From an uncultured bacterium (lineage in GTDB: Bacteria; Krumholzibacteriota; Krumholzibacteriia; Krumholzibacteriales; Krumholzibacteriaceae), in the NCBI GenBank assembly GCA_963747385.1, contig CAVVEY010000019.1:69048-133047 (forward strand): a stretch of DNA of 64,000 nt, given 5' to 3'. Below are positions 30,943-33,766 of this stretch, piece after piece (the stretch's first letter is position 1; every line of letters begins with the position of its first letter). The notes beneath the pieces are model-generated. The model was given only the letters and a program-made list of their open reading frames with translations, was not told the origin of the DNA and did no database searches. The position numbers and the translations under genes are program-made.

Positions 30943-32090
30943 ATCTTTACCCCTATCCAGTTGATGCCGGGTTCGGGTTTTGCGTCGTTGATCAGCTTGT
31001 CGGCGATCTCGCGTATGACCTTCGGCGTTATGTCGCGCCCGCCGAGGCCGGCGATATAGCCGGCGATAGGAACGTTCGTCCGCCCGTAGAGGGCGCTCTT
31101 CACTTCCTGGAAAAAGATTCCGTGGTGCCCGAACGAGATGTTCCGGTCGATGACGCCGACCTTCTTCGCCTTCGAGAGCACGTCGTACACTTCCTGGAAG
31201 GGAAACGGCCTGAAGACCCTGATCTTGAGGGCGCCGATCTTGATCCCCTCGTCGCGCATCTGGTCGATGACGGCGCGCGCGGTCGAGGCGACGGTGCCCG
31301 AAGTGACGAGGACGTAGTCGGCGTCCTCGCAGCGGTACGGCTTGACGACGCCGTAGCCGCGGCCGAAATGCTTCTCGAACTCCTTGTCGACGTCGCGCAC
31401 GACGGACCGCGATTCCACCATCGCCTGCTCGATCATGTAGCGAAGCTCGAAGTATTCCCCCGGGCTCGCGAGATTGCCGAAGGCGTGCGGGGCGTCGACG
31501 TCGATCCTGAACTTCGGCTCATAGGGAGGCAGGAAGGGCCGCACCTGCTCGGGCTCGAGGATGTCGACGATCTCGAAGGTGTGCGAGAGAAAGAACGCGT
31601 CGAGAACGACCATGACGGGAAGCATCACCGTCTCGGCGATCTTGAACGCCTGCACGATCGTGTCCTGCGTCTCCTGGTTGCTCTCGCAGTAGATCTGGAG
31701 CCAGCCGGTGTCGCGCTGCGAGAGTGAGTCGTTCTGGTCGGTCCAGATGCTCCACGGCGGGCCGACCGCGCGGTTGACGTTCACCAGCACGATCGGAAGC
31801 CGGGCCCCGACCGCCCAGTGGATAATCTCGTGCATGAGGAGAAGCCCCTGCGACGAGGTCGCCGTGAAGGTGCGCACGCCGGCCACGGAAGCGCCGACGC
31901 ACGCGGTGAGCGCGCTGTGCTCGGACTCGACCGCGATGAACTTCGCGTCGAGCTCCCCCTTGGCGCACATCTCGGAGAGAAGCTCCACGATCTGCGTCTG
32001 CGGAGTTATCGGGTACGCGGAGATTACCTTGACGTCGCTGGCGCGCACGCCGTAGCTCACGGCGTGGTTACCCATGATAACCTTCTTCAT
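30939..32090 (-). CDS. porA: Pyruvate (2-oxoacid):ferredoxin oxidoreductase alpha subunit
   Basis: MKKVIMGNHAVSYGVRASDVKVISAYPITPQTQIVE alpha-subunit N-terminus. Start at Met 32090 overlaps the upstream stop (ATGA). Confidence 0.85.
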   Translation of the reverse strand: MKKVIMGNHAVSYGVRASDVKVISAYPITPQTQIVELLSEMCAKGELDAKFIAVESEHSALTACVGASVAGVRTFTATSSQGLLLMHEIIHWAVGARLPIVLVNVNRAVGPPWSIWTDQNDSLSQRDTGWLQIYCESNQETQDTIVQAFKIAETVMLPVMVVLDAFFLSHTFEIVDILEPEQVRPFLPPYEPKFRIDVDAPHAFGNLASPGEYFELRYMIEQAMVESRSVVRDVDKEFEKHFGRGYGVVKPYRCEDADYVLVTSGTVASTARAVIDQMRDEGIKIGALKIRVFRPFPFQEVYDVLSKAKKVGVIDRNISFGHHGIFFQEVKSALYGRTNVPIAGYIAGLGGRDITPKVIREIADKLINDAKPEPGINWIGVKI

Positions 32091-33766
32091 CTTCCCTCCT
32101 CCCGCGTCGAAATGGCGCTGCGCGGGCATTCGGTCACGCAGACGAGGCAACCCTTGCAGAAGTCGTAATCGAATTCGTATTCATCGGCGAGGCGCTTGAC
32201 CGCGACGTCGGGGCAGAATACCCAGCAGTTGTCGCAGTAATTGCAAACGCCGCACGAGAAGCAGCGATCCGCCTCGCGGCGCAGCAGATCGCCTTCGTAT
32301 CCCGTGAATATCTCGCGGTAGCCCGCCACCGCCTCTTCGACCGGGATCCGCGGCACGTTCACGCGCTTCCCCTTCGTGAAATAGGCGGTGTTGATGTTCT
32401 CGATGCTGATCGTGCGCGGCTCCTCGACGGCCGGCTCGGGCTCATTCGAAAGCATCCGGCCGATGCGCTCGGCGGCCTTGCGCCCCGCCGCGATCGCCTC
32501 GACCACGCTCGCCGCGCCCGTCACGACGTCTCCTCCCGCGAAGATCTTCTTGTCGCGCGTCTCCCCGGATTCGTTTTGTATTTGAATGAGTCCGCCGCTC
32601 ACCTCGACGGCCTTCTCGAAGGGGGTGGCGTCCCCCTCCTCGCCGATCGCGGTGAAGAGCGTATCGATCTCCATCGTAAACGTCTTGTCCCCGTCCGCGA
32701 CGGGGCGCCTGCGGCCCGATTCGTCCGGTTCGCCGAGCTTCATCTGCTGAAAGACGACGCTCAGCGGCCCCGAGCCGCTCCGCGTTATGCTCTTCGGCGC
32801 GGCGAGGAAATGGAAGAACACGCCTTCCTTCTCGGCCTCCTCTATCTCGTCGGGAATCGCCGGCATCTCGTTCATCGTGCGGCGGTACACGACGGTGACC
32901 TCGCTCCCCGAGCGCCGCGCGCACCGCGCGACGTCCATCGCCGTGTTCCCGCCTCCCACGACGACCACACGCTTCCCGGGGGCGGCCTTCTCGCCGCCGT
33001 TCACCTTTCGAAGAAATTCGAGCCCGCGCTGGACGCCGGGCCCGTCCTCACCCGCGACGCCCATCGGGCGGCTGCGGGCGAGACCGGTGCCGATGAAGAC
33101 GGCCGCGTATTCCTTCTCGAGACTCTCGATGGTGACCGCGCCGCCGAGGGGCGTGCGCGTCTTCACCGTGATGGGACCCGATTCGAGAATCGAGCCGATG
33201 ACGCGGTCGAGCAGGTCGTTCGGCAGGCGGTACTCCGGAATTCCCCAGCGGAGCGTGCCGCCGAGGGCGTTTTCGCTCTCGAAGATCGTGACCGGATATC
33301 CCTGGCGCGCGAGGTAGAACGCGCACGAAAGGCCCGCCGGTCCGCCGCCGACCACCGCGATCTTCTCCTTCTTCGTCGCGCGCTTCTTCTCCATCCATTT
33401 CGGATTGTCGAGCCCCGCGTCCCCGATCGAGCGCTCGATCGCGGGGATGTTGATCGCCTGATCGAAATCCTTCCTCGTGCACTTCTCCATGCAGGGATGG
33501 AAACAGACGCGCCCCGTCACCGAGGGCATCGGGTTCGATTCGAGGATCGTCCGCCACGCCTTCTCGTAGTCGTTCTCGGTCACGAGATAGATGTACCGCT
33601 GGATATTCTCCGCCGTGGGACACCCGAGACGGCACGGAGAGATCTTGTAATCGTAATACGGCCGAACGTTGCGCCAGGAGCCCGTCATGTTGTACGTCAT
33701 GTCGGCCACCGACATGGCGCAGATCGGCATCTCCCGGAAGCTCTTGAAGGTGATTTTCTCTCCCAT
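32087..33766 (-). CDS. GltD-like NAD(P)H-dependent FAD oxidoreductase fused to a C-terminal 2x[4Fe-4S] ferredoxin (PorD-like) domain, in the porD position
   Basis: N-terminal Cys clusters (CRLGCP, CFHPCMEKC). Two Rossmann motifs (VVGGGPAGLSCAFYLA; VVVGGGNTAMDVARCA). C-terminus CFSCGVCNYCDNC...CKGCLVCVTECP. Confidence 0.7.
   Translation of the reverse strand: MGEKITFKSFREMPICAMSVADMTYNMTGSWRNVRPYYDYKISPCRLGCPTAENIQRYIYLVTENDYEKAWRTILESNPMPSVTGRVCFHPCMEKCTRKDFDQAINIPAIERSIGDAGLDNPKWMEKKRATKKEKIAVVGGGPAGLSCAFYLARQGYPVTIFESENALGGTLRWGIPEYRLPNDLLDRVIGSILESGPITVKTRTPLGGAVTIESLEKEYAAVFIGTGLARSRPMGVAGEDGPGVQRGLEFLRKVNGGEKAAPGKRVVVVGGGNTAMDVARCARRSGSEVTVVYRRTMNEMPAIPDEIEEAEKEGVFFHFLAAPKSITRSGSGPLSVVFQQMKLGEPDESGRRRPVADGDKTFTMEIDTLFTAIGEEGDATPFEKAVEVSGGLIQIQNESGETRDKKIFAGGDVVTGAASVVEAIAAGRKAAERIGRMLSNEPEPAVEEPRTISIENINTAYFTKGKRVNVPRIPVEEAVAGYREIFTGYEGDLLRREADRCFSCGVCNYCDNCWVFCPDVAVKRLADEYEFDYDFCKGCLVCVTECPRSAISTREEGR

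What the first reader, a model, noticed from the sequence alone, without database searches (positions are those of the whole stretch)
32087..33766. POR operon in which the delta (ferredoxin) subunit is fused to a GltD-like NAD(P)H:FAD oxidoreductase
Gene order porG - X - porA - porB is the canonical porGDAB layout, but X is 559 aa. It has a GltD/NfnB/SudA-like N-terminal module (two Cys clusters plus two Rossmann folds for FAD and NAD(P)H). Its C-terminal 2x[4Fe-4S] domain (CFSCGVCNYCDNC...CKGCLVCVTECP) is the usual PorD. ATGA overlap with porA implies translational coupling. Such an architecture could wire pyruvate oxidation directly to NAD(P)+ reduction, or run in reverse. That would be a bacterial analog of the eukaryotic PFO-CPR fusion, or a built-in Nfn-like electron-bifurcating partner.
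Basis: partly seen in the sequence, partly recalled or inferred. Interest (0 to 1): 0.6.

Follow-up and report, generated by a model that had tools for sequence, protein, structure and literature searches.

The report
POR operon with built-in NADP reductase
A four-gene pyruvate/2-oxoacid oxidoreductase operon in which the small iron-sulfur (delta) subunit carries an inserted NADPH-type flavoprotein, so electrons probably go straight to NADP+ rather than to free ferredoxin; the architecture is real, but it is common in bacteria and already catalogued.

Summary
On the minus strand lie porG (34387-33830), X (33766-32087, 559 aa), porA (32090-30939) and porB (30942-30028), with ATGA overlaps at both X/porA and porA/porB. 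X has an NfnB/GltD-type FAD/NAD(P)H flavoprotein core and a PorD-type 2x[4Fe-4S] end.

The anatomy is subtler than "GltD N-terminus plus PorD C-terminus". X is a PorD split by an inserted, circularly permuted NfnB-like module. Fifteen Cys plus one Glu, enough for four [4Fe-4S] clusters, are invariant in 61 OFOR-linked relatives, as are the FAD motif (GxGxxG) and the NAD(P)H glycine motif (GGG). The YRR NADPH motif is present in 60 of 61.

X passes the curated NCBIfam model NF009410 (PRK12771). Its junction segment finds 678 representative clusters. Full-length relatives sit next to OFOR genes in at least ten bacterial lineages, in four gene layouts.

Most likely function, by inference: a 2-oxoacid (pyruvate or branched-chain):NADP+ oxidoreductase. 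Nfn-like electron bifurcation is not supported: there is no nfnA gene, and the Arg typical of bifurcating NfnB is Ile.

Precedents are the NADP+-reducing KGOR of Azoarcus evansii and the NfnB-like gene co-transcribed with PFOR in Propionibacterium. I rate it a new member of a known kind, of modest interest.

The parts
33830..34387 (-). porG, gamma subunit of a four-subunit 2-oxoacid:acceptor oxidoreductase (185 aa)
   Evidence: Pfam POR PF01558 at 5.7e-39. NCBIfam TIGR02175 PorC_KorC scores 204.8 bits against a cutoff of 81.1.
32087..33766 (-). X, a 559-aa chimera: PorD (delta subunit) interrupted by a circularly permuted NfnB/GltD-type FAD/NAD(P)H flavoprotein
   Evidence: NCBIfam NF009410 scores 541.7 bits against a cutoff of 516, covering residues 25-555 and profile positions 30-563 of 566. 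Pfam finds Fer4_20, Pyr_redox_2 and Fer4.
33641..33700 (-). X residues 23-42: N-terminal arm of PorD (TGSWRNVRPYYDY)
   Evidence: The N-terminal 62 aa match PorD/VorD profiles in their N-terminal part: PorD_Arch positions 15-46 at E 0.004 and VorD positions 13-49 at E 0.0025. The only meaningful PDB hit is the PFOR delta subunit 9bt4_G, residues 14-46, E 0.02. This is a weak but specific match.
32432..33640 (-). X residues 43-445: NfnB/GltD-like core. It holds part of the Fer4_20 Fe-S domain (C45, C49, C88, C92, C96, E111), the FAD site G140-G-G-P-A-G145, and the NAD(P)H site G271-G-G-N-T-A-M-D with Y294-R295-R296.
   Evidence: Colinear with PfNfnI large subunit 5jca_L residues 49-473 (270 bits) and T. 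maritima NfnB 4ylf_B. These residues are invariant in 61 relatives.
32246..32380 (-). X residues 463-507: the relocated N-terminal segment of NfnB/GltD, ending in R-C502-F-S-C505-G. This is the circular permutation.
   Evidence: Matches TIGR01318 gltD positions 3-54 (7e-06), AegA positions 191-236 (3e-08) and PRK12814 positions 533-581 (2e-06). Aligns with PfNfnI-B residues 8-47, which hold Cys42 and Cys45. The solved chains 9bov_A and 8oh5_C show the same order, colinear with X 43-514.
32096..32245 (-). X residues 508-557: PorD ferredoxin core with two CxxCxxCxxxCP motifs (C508/511/514/518 and C537/540/543/547)
   Evidence: PorD_Arch positions 32-84 at 2e-17 and TIGR02179 at 1.6e-14. PDB 9bt4_G residues 33-79. 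All eight Cys are invariant.
30939..32090 (-). porA, alpha subunit (383 aa from the ATG at 32090)
   Evidence: POR_N at 3e-74 and PFOR_II at 8e-34. PorA_Arch scores 501.8 bits (cutoff 550) and VorA 461 bits (cutoff 646). Best PDB match is the four-subunit PFOR 9bt4_B at 345 bits. The PFOR-type Thr (YPITP) and Arg (NRAV) are kept.
30028..30942 (-). porB, beta subunit (304 aa). It carries the thiamine diphosphate motif GDGG...YDNEAYMNTG and Cys 20, 23, 47/48 and 209 for the proximal [4Fe-4S] cluster.
   Evidence: TPP_enzyme_C at 6e-21. PRK11864 scores 402.6 bits (cutoff 405) and PorB PRK11865 353 bits (cutoff 405).

Best explanation
The operon most likely encodes a four-subunit 2-oxoacid:NADP+ oxidoreductase in which X replaces the usual delta subunit. 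The substrate is pyruvate or a branched-chain 2-oxoacid; sequence does not decide which.

**Anatomy of X (shown by sequence)**
- X is a PorD whose chain is interrupted, between its N-terminal arm and its first cluster motif, by a circularly permuted NfnB/GltD-type flavoprotein.
- The two ends of the insert (C45/C49 and C502/C505) are the halves of one NfnB cluster-binding motif. They should therefore meet in space, which is what a domain insertion requires.
- X has 15 Cys plus Glu111, enough to bind four [4Fe-4S] clusters, and it has an FAD site.

**Proposed electron path (inferred)**
1. Thiamine diphosphate on PorA/PorB oxidises the 2-oxoacid.
2. Electrons pass to the [4Fe-4S] cluster of PorB.
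3. They pass through the two PorD-type clusters of X.
4. They pass through the two NfnB-type clusters of X.
5. They reach FAD, which transfers a hydride to NADP+.

The YRR motif points to NADP(H) rather than NAD(H). The reaction (about -500 mV to -320 mV) runs downhill without any coupling, so no bifurcation is needed. The PorD-type clusters may still be able to reduce external ferredoxin.
For: - **Gene order and coupling:** the operon order and the ATGA translational coupling are confirmed.
- **No other porD:** no separate porD-like ORF occurs in the operon or in the related loci.
- **Domain content:** established.
- **Permutation:** X residues 468-507 align with PfNfnI-B 8-47, and X 42-442 with PfNfnI-B 49-473.
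- **PorD arm:** it lies at the N-terminus of X.
- **Cofactor residues:** PfNfnI-B Cys42/Cys45 map to C502/C505, Glu126 to E111, and Tyr323-Arg324-Arg325 to Y294-R295-R296.
- **Conservation:** 15 Cys, E111, GxGxxG and GGG are invariant in 61 OFOR-linked relatives, and YRR is present in 60 of 61.
- **Conserved neighbourhood:** of the full-length relatives in 80 genome loci, 57 sit next to OFOR genes. The layouts are porG-X-porA-porB (6), PorG fused to X then porA-porB (4), porG-porA-porB-X (19) and X followed by a single-chain PFOR (17 complete, plus 11 cut by contig ends). The PorG-X fusions argue that X is a physical subunit of the complex.
- **Stand-alone relatives are Fd:NADP+ reductases:** NfnB-like proteins without NfnA act this way (PMC12221290).
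- **Precedent:** the flavoprotein subunit of the NADP+-reducing KGOR of A. evansii is placed in this superfamily (PMC10134865).
- **Expression evidence in a relative:** the PFOR-flanking homologue is co-transcribed and co-regulated with PFOR in Propionibacterium (PMC7650540).
Against: - No enzyme of this exact type (four-subunit POR with X as delta) has been assayed in anything I could find.
- NADP+ versus NAD+ specificity rests on one motif.
- The AlphaFold model is confident only for the flavoprotein core (pLDDT below 50 for residues 1-49, 448-487 and 503-559). The Fe-S wiring is therefore inferred from homology, not modelled.
- PorA, PorB and PorG fall just below every equivalog cutoff, so the substrate is unresolved.
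- Sending -500 mV electrons to NADP+ wastes energy that anaerobes usually conserve. That makes one ask whether something more is going on.
- In the layout with a single-chain PFOR, a third, DHODH-like gene is conserved. At least that branch of the family may do more than simple NADP+ reduction.
Confidence: 0.65

Rival explanations
1. X makes the enzyme an Nfn-like flavin-based electron-bifurcating or confurcating complex. The FAD would split or merge electrons between the low-potential Fe-S chain and a second, higher-potential partner.
For: - The core of X is homologous to the bifurcating subunit NfnB (279 bits to 5jca_L).
- The site-differentiated Glu ligand is kept (E111).
- McCubbin et al. 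proposed a bifurcating complex for the PFOR-flanking homologue plus a DHODH-like gene (PMC7650540).
- That third gene is conserved in 13 loci of the single-chain PFOR layout.
Against: - The window operon has only four genes, with a tRNA-Arg gene upstream and pseudopilin genes downstream.
- phmmer with the DHODH-like protein finds no homologue anywhere in the 64-kb window. The Pfam sample of window genes shows no NfnA-like gene.
- The equivalent of Arg333 is Ile304 in X, and His, Ile, Asn or Gln in all 61 relatives. By the criteria of PMC12221290, this resembles monofunctional Fd:NADP+ reductases.
- Thermodynamically, no coupling is needed.
Confidence: 0.1
2. The complex works mainly in the reductive direction, using NADPH to drive reductive carboxylation of an acyl-CoA to a 2-oxoacid. 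It would be an NADPH-dependent pyruvate or 2-oxoacid synthase for anabolism.
For: - OFORs are reversible in principle.
- NfnB/GltD modules normally pass electrons from NADPH into Fe-S chains, as in glutamate synthase (established knowledge).
- From memory, the Helicobacter pylori PFOR-flavodoxin-FqrB chain was reported to run from NADPH towards pyruvate in vitro (St Maurice et al. 2007). I did not check this here.
Against: - The reaction is uphill by roughly 180 mV (about +35 kJ/mol) with no visible coupling device.
- No CO2-fixation genes are visible in the window.
- The family occurs widely in heterotrophic lineages.
Confidence: 0.1
3. X is essentially a delta subunit, and the complex still reduces free ferredoxin. 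The flavoprotein part would have an accessory role, for example NADPH-dependent re-reduction or protection of the clusters in oxygen-exposed cells, or redox regulation.
For: - The PorD-type clusters and the PorD arm are fully kept.
- The family is frequent in lineages with aerobic members, such as Actinomycetota, Gemmatimonadota and Betaproteobacteria.
- In the single-chain PFOR layout the PFOR already has its own ferredoxin domain, so there X is an add-on rather than a replacement.
Against: - Complete conservation of every catalytic FAD, NADPH and cluster residue over very distant lineages fits a main-line electron path better than an accessory one.
- No such protective role is known for NfnB/GltD modules.
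Confidence: 0.1

Closest known systems
NCBIfam NF009410 (PRK12771) 'NAD(P)-binding protein' family
   Same: - X matches the 566-position model end to end and above the curated cutoff (541.7 against 516).
- Core members from Propionibacterium and Rhodocyclaceae loci score 789-795 bits and also sit beside OFOR genes.
   Different: - X is a peripheral member, only 33-44% identical to the actinobacterial and proteobacterial members.
- It has Ile rather than His at position 304, and sits in the gene order porG-X-porA-porB.
- The family has a name but no assigned function.
2-Oxoglutarate:NADP+ oxidoreductase (KGOR) of Azoarcus evansii (Ebenau-Jehle, Boll and Fuchs 2003)
   Same: - It is an OFOR that reduces NADP+ directly through an extra FAD/Fe-S subunit of about 63 kDa (from memory of the abstract).
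- That subunit is placed in the GltD/NfnB superfamily by PMC10134865.
   Different: - Its catalytic subunits are of the 2-oxoglutarate (KorAB) type and it has three subunits. Here PorA and PorB belong to the pyruvate/2-ketoisovalerate family and there are four subunits.
- I could not obtain the KGOR sequence, so orthology with X is untested.
Monofunctional ferredoxin:NADP+ oxidoreductases of the NfnB-like type (C. acetobutylicum CA_C0764 type)
   Same: - Both have Fer4_20 plus Pyr_redox_2 domains and a Glu-ligated proximal cluster.
- Both lack an nfnA neighbour and lack Arg at the PfNfnI-B 333 position (PMC12221290).
   Different: - Those are stand-alone proteins that use free ferredoxin.
- In X the module is circularly permuted and inserted into the ferredoxin-like subunit of the electron-donating enzyme.
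NfnAB transhydrogenase large subunit (PDB 5jca_L, 4ylf_B)
   Same: The cofactor set and ligands are homologous (248-279 bits).
   Different: - X has no NfnA partner and no Arg333.
- The N-terminal segment is relocated behind the flavoprotein core.
NfnB-like modules of the large Stn-type proteins (PDB 8oh5_C, 9bov_A, 9n5u_A)
   Same: The topology has the same permuted order. X 43-514 is colinear with residues 102-574 of 8oh5_C and 9bov_A, including the trailing RCxxCG. 9n5u_A aligns well only over X 35-447.
   Different: - Those proteins are 960-1180 aa, with other N- and C-terminal domains.
- Their relatives in the genome scan have no OFOR neighbour.
PFOR-flanking NfnB-like gene of Propionibacterium (McCubbin et al. 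2020, PMC7650540)
   Same: It belongs to the same protein family (L037 scores 789 bits on NF009410). It is described as NfnB-like with an additional ferredoxin site, and it is co-transcribed with PFOR.
   Different: - Its partner is a single-chain PFOR that has its own ferredoxin domain.
- A DHODH-like third gene is conserved there but is absent from the window.
NADH-dependent phenylglyoxylate dehydrogenase PadEFGHI
   Same: It is an OFOR of the same POR/VOR-related family with an added flavoprotein subunit that reduces NAD+. PadE, PadF, PadG and PadI models hit PorG, the C-terminus of X, PorA and PorB.
   Different: - All scores are far below the equivalog cutoffs (155/300, 43/150, 289/700, 240/700).
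- In that enzyme the delta and flavoprotein subunits are separate proteins.
Eukaryotic pyruvate:NADP+ oxidoreductase (PFO-CPR fusion of Euglena and Cryptosporidium)
   Same: The overall logic is the same: PFOR electrons are delivered to NADP+ by a covalently attached flavoprotein (established knowledge).
   Different: The attached module there is cytochrome P450 reductase-like (FMN plus FAD). X shows no flavodoxin or FNR-type domain. The similarity is one of function, not of ancestry.

Membership tests
NCBIfam NF009410 / PRK12771 NAD(P)-binding protein | Whole-protein score at or above the curated cutoff (516 bits), with end-to-end coverage | tested here: met
   541.7 bits; residues 25-555 against profile positions 30-563 of 566.
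NCBIfam NF009410 / PRK12771 NAD(P)-binding protein | Conserved cofactor residues shared by family members (15 Cys plus Glu, GxGxxG, GGGNTAMD, YRR) | tested here: met
   All are present in X. All are invariant in 61 aligned members, except YRR at 60 of 61.
NCBIfam NF009410 / PRK12771 NAD(P)-binding protein | Genomic association with 2-oxoacid oxidoreductase genes. This is my own observation, not part of the NCBI definition. | tested here: met
   57 loci with a full-length member have OFOR genes adjacent. The window has porG upstream and porA/porB downstream.
PorD / delta subunit of four-subunit OFORs (TIGR02179, NF040684) | Two CxxCxxCxxxCP motifs for two [4Fe-4S] clusters | tested here: met
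   C508/511/514/518-P and C537/540/543/547-P.
PorD / delta subunit of four-subunit OFORs (TIGR02179, NF040684) | Score above the curated cutoff of the PorD models | tested here: not met
   TIGR02179 scores 53.7-56.2 bits against a cutoff of 60.05. PorD_Arch scores 63.1 against 120. Only profile positions 26/32 to the end are matched at the C-terminus.
PorD / delta subunit of four-subunit OFORs (TIGR02179, NF040684) | N-terminal arm motif (TGxWRxxRP) directly preceding the first cluster motif | tested here: inconclusive
   The motif is present (T28-G-S-W-R-N-V-R-P36) and matches PorD profiles and 9bt4_G weakly (E 0.0025-0.02). It is separated from the PorD cluster motifs by about 470 residues.
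PorD / delta subunit of four-subunit OFORs (TIGR02179, NF040684) | Gene located between porG and porA, with no other porD in the operon | tested here: met
Bifurcating NfnB (NfnAB) | nfnA gene directly upstream (criterion of PMC12221290) | tested here: not met
   porG lies upstream. No NfnA-like gene appeared among the 20 window genes I annotated, and phmmer found no DHODH-like gene in the window.
Bifurcating NfnB (NfnAB) | Arg at PfNfnI-B position 333 next to the FAD | tested here: not met
   Ile304 in X by the HMMER alignment. His, Ile, Asn or Gln in 61 relatives.
Bifurcating NfnB (NfnAB) | Extended N-terminus before the first ligating Cys | tested here: inconclusive
   A homologous segment exists (X 468-501 aligns with Nfn 8-41) but is relocated to the C-terminal side of the core.
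Monofunctional NfnB-like Fd:NADP+ oxidoreductase (CA_C0764 type) | Fer4_20 plus Pyr_redox_2, no nfnA neighbour, and no Arg at position 333 | tested here: met
Monofunctional NfnB-like Fd:NADP+ oxidoreductase (CA_C0764 type) | Stand-alone protein acting on free ferredoxin, with measured NADP+ reduction | tested here: not met
   X is fused into PorD and encoded inside the POR operon. Activity cannot be tested with these tools.
NADP+-reducing KGOR (A. evansii KorABC) | Catalytic subunits of the 2-oxoglutarate (KorA/KorB) type | tested here: not met
   The best Kor/Oor models score only 47-166 bits on PorA and PorB, whereas POR/VOR models score 353-502 bits.
NADP+-reducing KGOR (A. evansii KorABC) | The flavoprotein subunit is orthologous to X | not testable with these tools
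   The paper and the sequence are not held. A homologue search with a Rhodocyclaceae member returned only metagenomic Betaproteobacteria.
Phenylglyoxylate dehydrogenase PadEFGHI | Equivalog cutoffs of the PadE, PadF, PadG and PadI models | tested here: not met
   155.3/300, 42.8/150, 289/700 and 240.3/700.
Eukaryotic PFO-CPR pyruvate:NADP+ oxidoreductase | CPR-type module (flavodoxin-like FMN domain plus FNR-like FAD/NADPH domain) fused to PFOR | tested here: not met
   X has no such Pfam domains; only Fer4_20, Pyr_redox-type and Fer4 domains are found.

The most novel reading that the evidence does not exclude
The porG-X-porA-porB enzymes would be a widespread class of four-subunit pyruvate/2-oxoacid:NADP+ oxidoreductases that has never been tested biochemically. 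They occur in Krumholzibacteriota, Gemmatimonadota, Bacteroidota, Verrucomicrobiota, Fraserbacteria and, with PorG fused to X, Planctomycetota. The class would have arisen by inserting a circularly permuted NfnB-type flavoprotein into the delta subunit. Metabolic reconstructions currently score all of them as ferredoxin-reducing PORs. A stronger version is that they have two acceptors (ferredoxin and NADP+), or couple them.
Probability: 0.45. Interest if true: 0.5.

Novelty: new member of a known kind. Interest (0 to 1): 0.33.

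Why it matters
- **Metabolic reconstruction.** If X does what its sequence says, pyruvate or branched-chain 2-oxoacid oxidation in this organism, and in many uncultured lineages, yields NADPH directly instead of reduced ferredoxin. That changes redox and energy budgets in genome-based models.
- **Annotation.** It explains a gene that pipelines label in several ways: glutamate synthase, selenate reductase YgfK subunit, formate dehydrogenase beta subunit, or simply NAD(P)-binding protein.
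- **Testable wiring.** The domain-insertion anatomy predicts a specific electron path through five [4Fe-4S] clusters to one FAD, which can be checked experimentally.
- **What it does not do.** It opens no new principle. NAD(P)+-linked OFORs and NfnB-like ferredoxin:NADP+ reductases are already known.

Tried and rejected
- **AlphaFold2 model of X.** I ran it with a 13-sequence alignment. The mean pLDDT was 67.4. Only the flavoprotein core was confident, and all the Fe-S regions were below 50. The model said nothing about how the N- and C-terminal Cys come together, so I ran no fold search on it.
- **Literature searches.** Eight of the nine searches gave nothing direct. One search was wasted because 'SudA' matched 'Sudan'. 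The key KGOR paper (PMC225024) is not held, and the supplements of PMC10134865 do not hold the KGOR accession.
- **Second homologue search.** I searched with the Rhodocyclaceae member, hoping to reach Azoarcus or Aromatoleum KorC. The top 120 hits were all metagenomic Betaproteobacteria at 81% identity or more, so orthology with KGOR stays open.
- **Promoter and terminator scan of the operon.** It found no sigma-70-like site, and terminator-like hits were at the chance level.
- **Redox partners in the window.** The 20 window genes I annotated with Pfam were housekeeping or unrelated genes (pseudopilins, cysteine desulfurase, cyclophilin, DnaX, AlaRS and others), plus a few with no Pfam hit; none was a ferredoxin, Rnf, Nfn or hydrogenase gene.
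- **Rejected: an oxalate or 2-oxoglutarate enzyme.** PorA has the PFOR-type Thr rather than the Arg of oxalate oxidoreductase, and the Kor models score low.
- **Rejected: a gene-fusion artefact from a sequencing frameshift.** More than 100 homologues of the same length (557-560 aa) share the architecture.

Full report
**1. The observation**

The ORF list shows four consecutive minus-strand genes.
- porG lies at 34387-33830 (185 aa).
- X lies at 33766-32087 (559 aa).
- porA is listed from a TTG at 32150, but its real start is the ATG at 32090. That start has a GGAGG just upstream and gives 383 aa.
- porB lies at 30942-30028 (304 aa).

The X stop and the porA start overlap as ATGA, and so do porA and porB. 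X has a GGAGGA 4 nt before its ATG. Third-position GC is 0.82-0.87 for porG, X and porB, as in other genes of the window. That heuristic did not select porA.

The operon is bounded upstream by a tRNA-Arg gene (34570-34645). Downstream there is a 260-nt gap followed by pseudopilin genes. It is therefore a self-contained four-gene unit.

Pfam and NCBIfam identify PorG, PorA and PorB as members of the pyruvate/2-ketoisovalerate branch of the 2-oxoacid:ferredoxin oxidoreductases. In X they identify Fer4_20 (residues 43-117), Pyr_redox_2 (135-428) and a PorD-like end (506-557).

**2. The anatomy of X is more interesting than a head-to-tail fusion**

Three results show this.
- phmmer against the P. 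furiosus NfnI large subunit (5jca_L) returns two pieces in swapped order. X 42-442 aligns with Nfn 49-473, and X 468-507 aligns with Nfn 8-47.
- The isolated C-terminal 111 residues of X match the N-terminal 50 positions of GltD-family profiles: TIGR01318 positions 3-54 at E 7e-06 and AegA at 3e-08. Immediately after that they match PorD positions 32-84.
- The isolated N-terminal 62 residues match the N-terminal part of PorD/VorD profiles (E 0.0025-0.004). Their only meaningful hit in the whole PDB is the delta subunit of a four-subunit PFOR, 9bt4_G residues 14-46 (E 0.02). The alignment is NKTGGWRNFRPVYIY against NMTGSWRNVRPYYDY.

So X is a PorD whose chain is interrupted, between its N-terminal arm and its first cluster motif, by a circularly permuted NfnB/GltD-type flavoprotein.

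The insert begins with the second half of the first cluster motif of NfnB (P-C45-x3-C49-P). It ends with the first half (R-C502-x2-C505-G). These two ends must meet in space, which is exactly what a domain insertion needs.

The same permuted order, colinear with X 43-514, is present in solved structures of large Stn-type proteins (8oh5_C, 9bov_A). The topology itself is therefore not new.

**3. Cofactor residues**

I used the residue roles given for PfNfnI-B in Huang et al. 2025 (PMC12221290) and the HMMER alignment.
- Cys42 and Cys45 correspond to C502 and C505.
- The site-differentiated Glu126 corresponds to E111.
- The Tyr-Arg-Arg of the NADP(H) site (323-325) corresponds to Y294-R295-R296.
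- Arg333 corresponds to Ile304.

X contains 18 Cys. Fifteen of them (45, 49, 88, 92, 96, 502, 505, 508, 511, 514, 518, 537, 540, 543, 547), together with E111, give 16 ligands, enough for four [4Fe-4S] clusters.

I aligned 61 OFOR-linked relatives taken from genome loci. All 15 Cys, E111, the FAD GxGxxG and the GGG of the NAD(P)H site are invariant. YRR is present in 60 of 61. The Arg333-equivalent position is never Arg (His 44, Ile 15, Asn 1, Gln 1).

**4. How common the architecture is, and where it sits**

- X passes the curated full-length NCBIfam model NF009410 (PRK12771, 'NAD(P)-binding protein'): 541.7 bits against a cutoff of 516, covering residues 25-555 of X and 30-563 of 566 profile positions.
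- The closest homologues (60-88% identical, nearly all 557-560 aa) come from Krumholzibacteriota and Latescibacteria-like metagenomes. JGI already names some of them 'NADPH-dependent glutamate synthase beta subunit-like oxidoreductase / Pyruvate/2-oxoacid:ferredoxin oxidoreductase delta subunit'.
- The junction segment alone (X 440-559) finds 678 representative clusters (at 50% identity) at E <= 1e-10. The best 150 all match at protein C-termini, and many of those proteins are 540-610 aa long.

I searched the ORFs of those loci with the window's PorG, PorA and PorB. Full-length relatives fall into four layouts.
- **porG-X-porA-porB**, as in the window: 6 loci (Krumholzibacteriia, Cytophagia, Gemmatimonadota, Akkermansiaceae, Fraserbacteria).
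- **PorG fused to X, then porA-porB:** 4 loci, all Planctomycetota.
- **porG-porA-porB-X:** 19 loci (Actinomycetota, Alpha-, Beta- and Gammaproteobacteria, and a deltaproteobacterium).
- **X directly followed by a single-chain OFOR of about 1200 aa:** 17 complete loci plus 11 cut by contig ends (Actinomycetota, Bacteroidota, Acidobacteriota, Proteobacteria).

NCBIfam confirms that the large partner in Propionibacterium ruminifibrarum is a bona fide PFOR (TIGR02176, 1689 bits). It also confirms that the X homologues there and in a Rhodocyclaceae MAG are core NF009410 members (789 and 795 bits).

No separate PorD-like ORF is present in the loci with split subunits, so there X supplies the delta function. 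Larger proteins (700-1500 aa) that match only X 43-512 have no OFOR neighbour. One locus (L012) also carries a different GltD-like protein with a ferredoxin end, in front of korA/korB/korG-type genes. Flavoprotein add-ons to OFORs have therefore arisen more than once.

**5. Mechanism**

What is shown:
- the gene order, the translational coupling and the domain order;
- conservation of all cofactor ligands;
- conserved neighbourhood with OFOR genes, including the PorG-X fusions;
- absence of another delta subunit.

What is inferred: thiamine diphosphate on PorA/PorB oxidises the 2-oxoacid. Electrons then pass through the PorB cluster (Cys 20, 23, 47/48 and 209), the two PorD-type clusters of X and the two NfnB-type clusters, and reach FAD, which reduces NADP+.

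The YRR motif is that of the NADPH-using relatives NfnB and GltD, so NADP+ is the more likely acceptor. I hold this with moderate confidence only.

The substrate is pyruvate or a branched-chain 2-oxoacid.
- PorA scores 501.8 bits on PorA_Arch (cutoff 550) and 461 on VorA.
- PorB scores 402.6 on the VorB-type model (cutoff 405) and 353 on PorB.
- PorA keeps the Thr of YPITP and the Arg of NRAV, which align with the pyruvate-binding residues of D. africanus PFOR. Oxalate oxidoreductase has Arg in place of that Thr (the residue roles are from my memory of the PFOR and OOR structures).

The reaction is strongly downhill, so no energy coupling is required.

**6. The bifurcation idea**

Huang et al. 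give three marks that separate bifurcating NfnB from monofunctional ferredoxin:NADP+ reductases: an upstream nfnA gene, Arg333, and an extended N-terminus.
- X has no nfnA gene nearby.
- X has Ile at the Arg333 position.
- Its N-terminal segment is relocated.

X therefore resembles the monofunctional class.

McCubbin et al. 2020 (PMC7650540) had already noticed the family member next to PFOR in Propionibacterium. They found it co-transcribed and co-regulated with PFOR and with a DHODH-like gene, and proposed a bifurcating complex, which has not been tested. I find that DHODH-like gene conserved in 13 loci of the X-PFOR layout, plus one weak hit (39 bits) about 1.6 kb beyond porB in a PorG-X fusion locus (L011). 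It is absent from all other split-subunit loci and from the whole window. Whatever that third gene does, it is not part of the system in this window.

**7. Comparison with what is known, and novelty**

- **Closest functional precedent.** This is the NADP+-reducing 2-oxoglutarate oxidoreductase of Azoarcus evansii. From my memory of the abstract it has three subunits, contains FAD and is NADP+-specific. Its flavoprotein subunit is placed in the GltD/NfnB tree by PMC10134865. I could not get its sequence, so orthology with X is open.
- **Related precedent.** PadEFGHI, the NAD+-linked phenylglyoxylate enzyme, is related, but all cutoffs are missed by a wide margin.
- **Functional analogue only.** The eukaryotic PFO-CPR fusion uses a different flavoprotein.
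- **Structures.** No PDB entry contains an OFOR with such a subunit.

The kind of system (OFOR plus a GltD/NfnB-type NAD(P)+-reducing subunit) is known. The sequence family is curated and abundant, and one layout has been discussed in print.

Two things appear to be untested or undescribed in the literature I could search. One is the four-subunit POR/VOR-type version with X in the delta position. The other is the description of X as an insertion plus permutation. I therefore rate it a new member of a known kind, with modest interest.

**8. Limits**

- No activity data exist for any member.
- The AlphaFold model was uninformative for the Fe-S parts.
- NADP+ versus NAD+ specificity and the substrate are inferred from motifs and profile scores.
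- The library of papers lacks most subscription journals, so a biochemical study could have been missed.

Noticed in passing
L025, L031, L034, L037, L038, L045, L047, L051, L057, L059, L071, L073, L074 (about 10-12.5 kb in each locus): Where the X homologue precedes a single-chain PFOR, a DHODH/PreA-like gene (about 340-370 aa) follows the PFOR in 13 loci from several phyla. This gives a conserved three-gene unit, X-PFOR-DHODH-like. It recalls the PreT/PreA pairing of dihydropyrimidine dehydrogenase, and its function is unknown.
   Followed up: partly
L011 5317-7608, L013 5281-7584, L018 5197-7572, L023 4610-6931: In Planctomycetota the gamma subunit (PorG) and the X homologue are in one stop-free reading frame of about 760-790 aa, followed by porA and porB.
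   Followed up: partly
L012 4146-8417: A second, different GltD-like protein (578 aa) has a normal, non-permuted N-terminus and a ferredoxin-like end. It sits in front of korA/korB/korG-type 2-oxoacid oxidoreductase genes, right after a porA-porB-X set. This looks like an independent flavoprotein add-on to another OFOR class.
   Followed up: partly
window 34570-35283 and 22392-22751: There are two tRNA clusters on the minus strand. The first holds tRNA-Arg(ACG), tRNA-Ser(GCT) and tRNA-Ser(TGA), with a small DUF3566-like membrane ORF (34655-35062) between them. The second holds tRNA-Ala(CGC), tRNA-Ser(CGA) and tRNA-Ser(GGA). The POR operon starts about 180 nt downstream of tRNA-Arg, and no sigma-70-like promoter was detected.
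   Followed up: no
window 23212-29768: Directly downstream of porB is a run of pilin/pseudopilin-like genes with N-terminal methylation motifs. It includes an unusually large 1051-aa protein (25489-28644) and a PilX_N/DUF4900 protein (24112-25464).
   Followed up: no
window 36312-38575: A class-V aminotransferase (IscS/NifS-like cysteine desulfurase, 37373-38575) is followed by an ORF whose translation carries an SGGVDS PP-loop motif, as in the tRNA 2-thiouridylase MnmA (within 36312-37400). I read the MnmA-like assignment from the translation and did not test it.
   Followed up: no
window 41279-43719 and 45843-47888: Three sizeable ORFs with coding-like GC3 (404, 409 and 681 aa) have no Pfam match at E <= 1e-5.
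   Followed up: no
window 48275-49642 and 58525-60102: The window also holds a B12-binding radical SAM protein and a stand-alone NRPS condensation-domain protein (525 aa).
   Followed up: no
X position 84 across relatives: The residue before GRVC, which is Cys in T. maritima NfnB, tracks the gene layout. It is Thr in the window and in most porG-X-porA-porB loci, Cys in the PorG-X fusions, Met in the porG-porA-porB-X loci and His in the X-PFOR loci. Position 304 (Ile versus His) splits the same way. This suggests that the layouts are separate clades.
   Followed up: no
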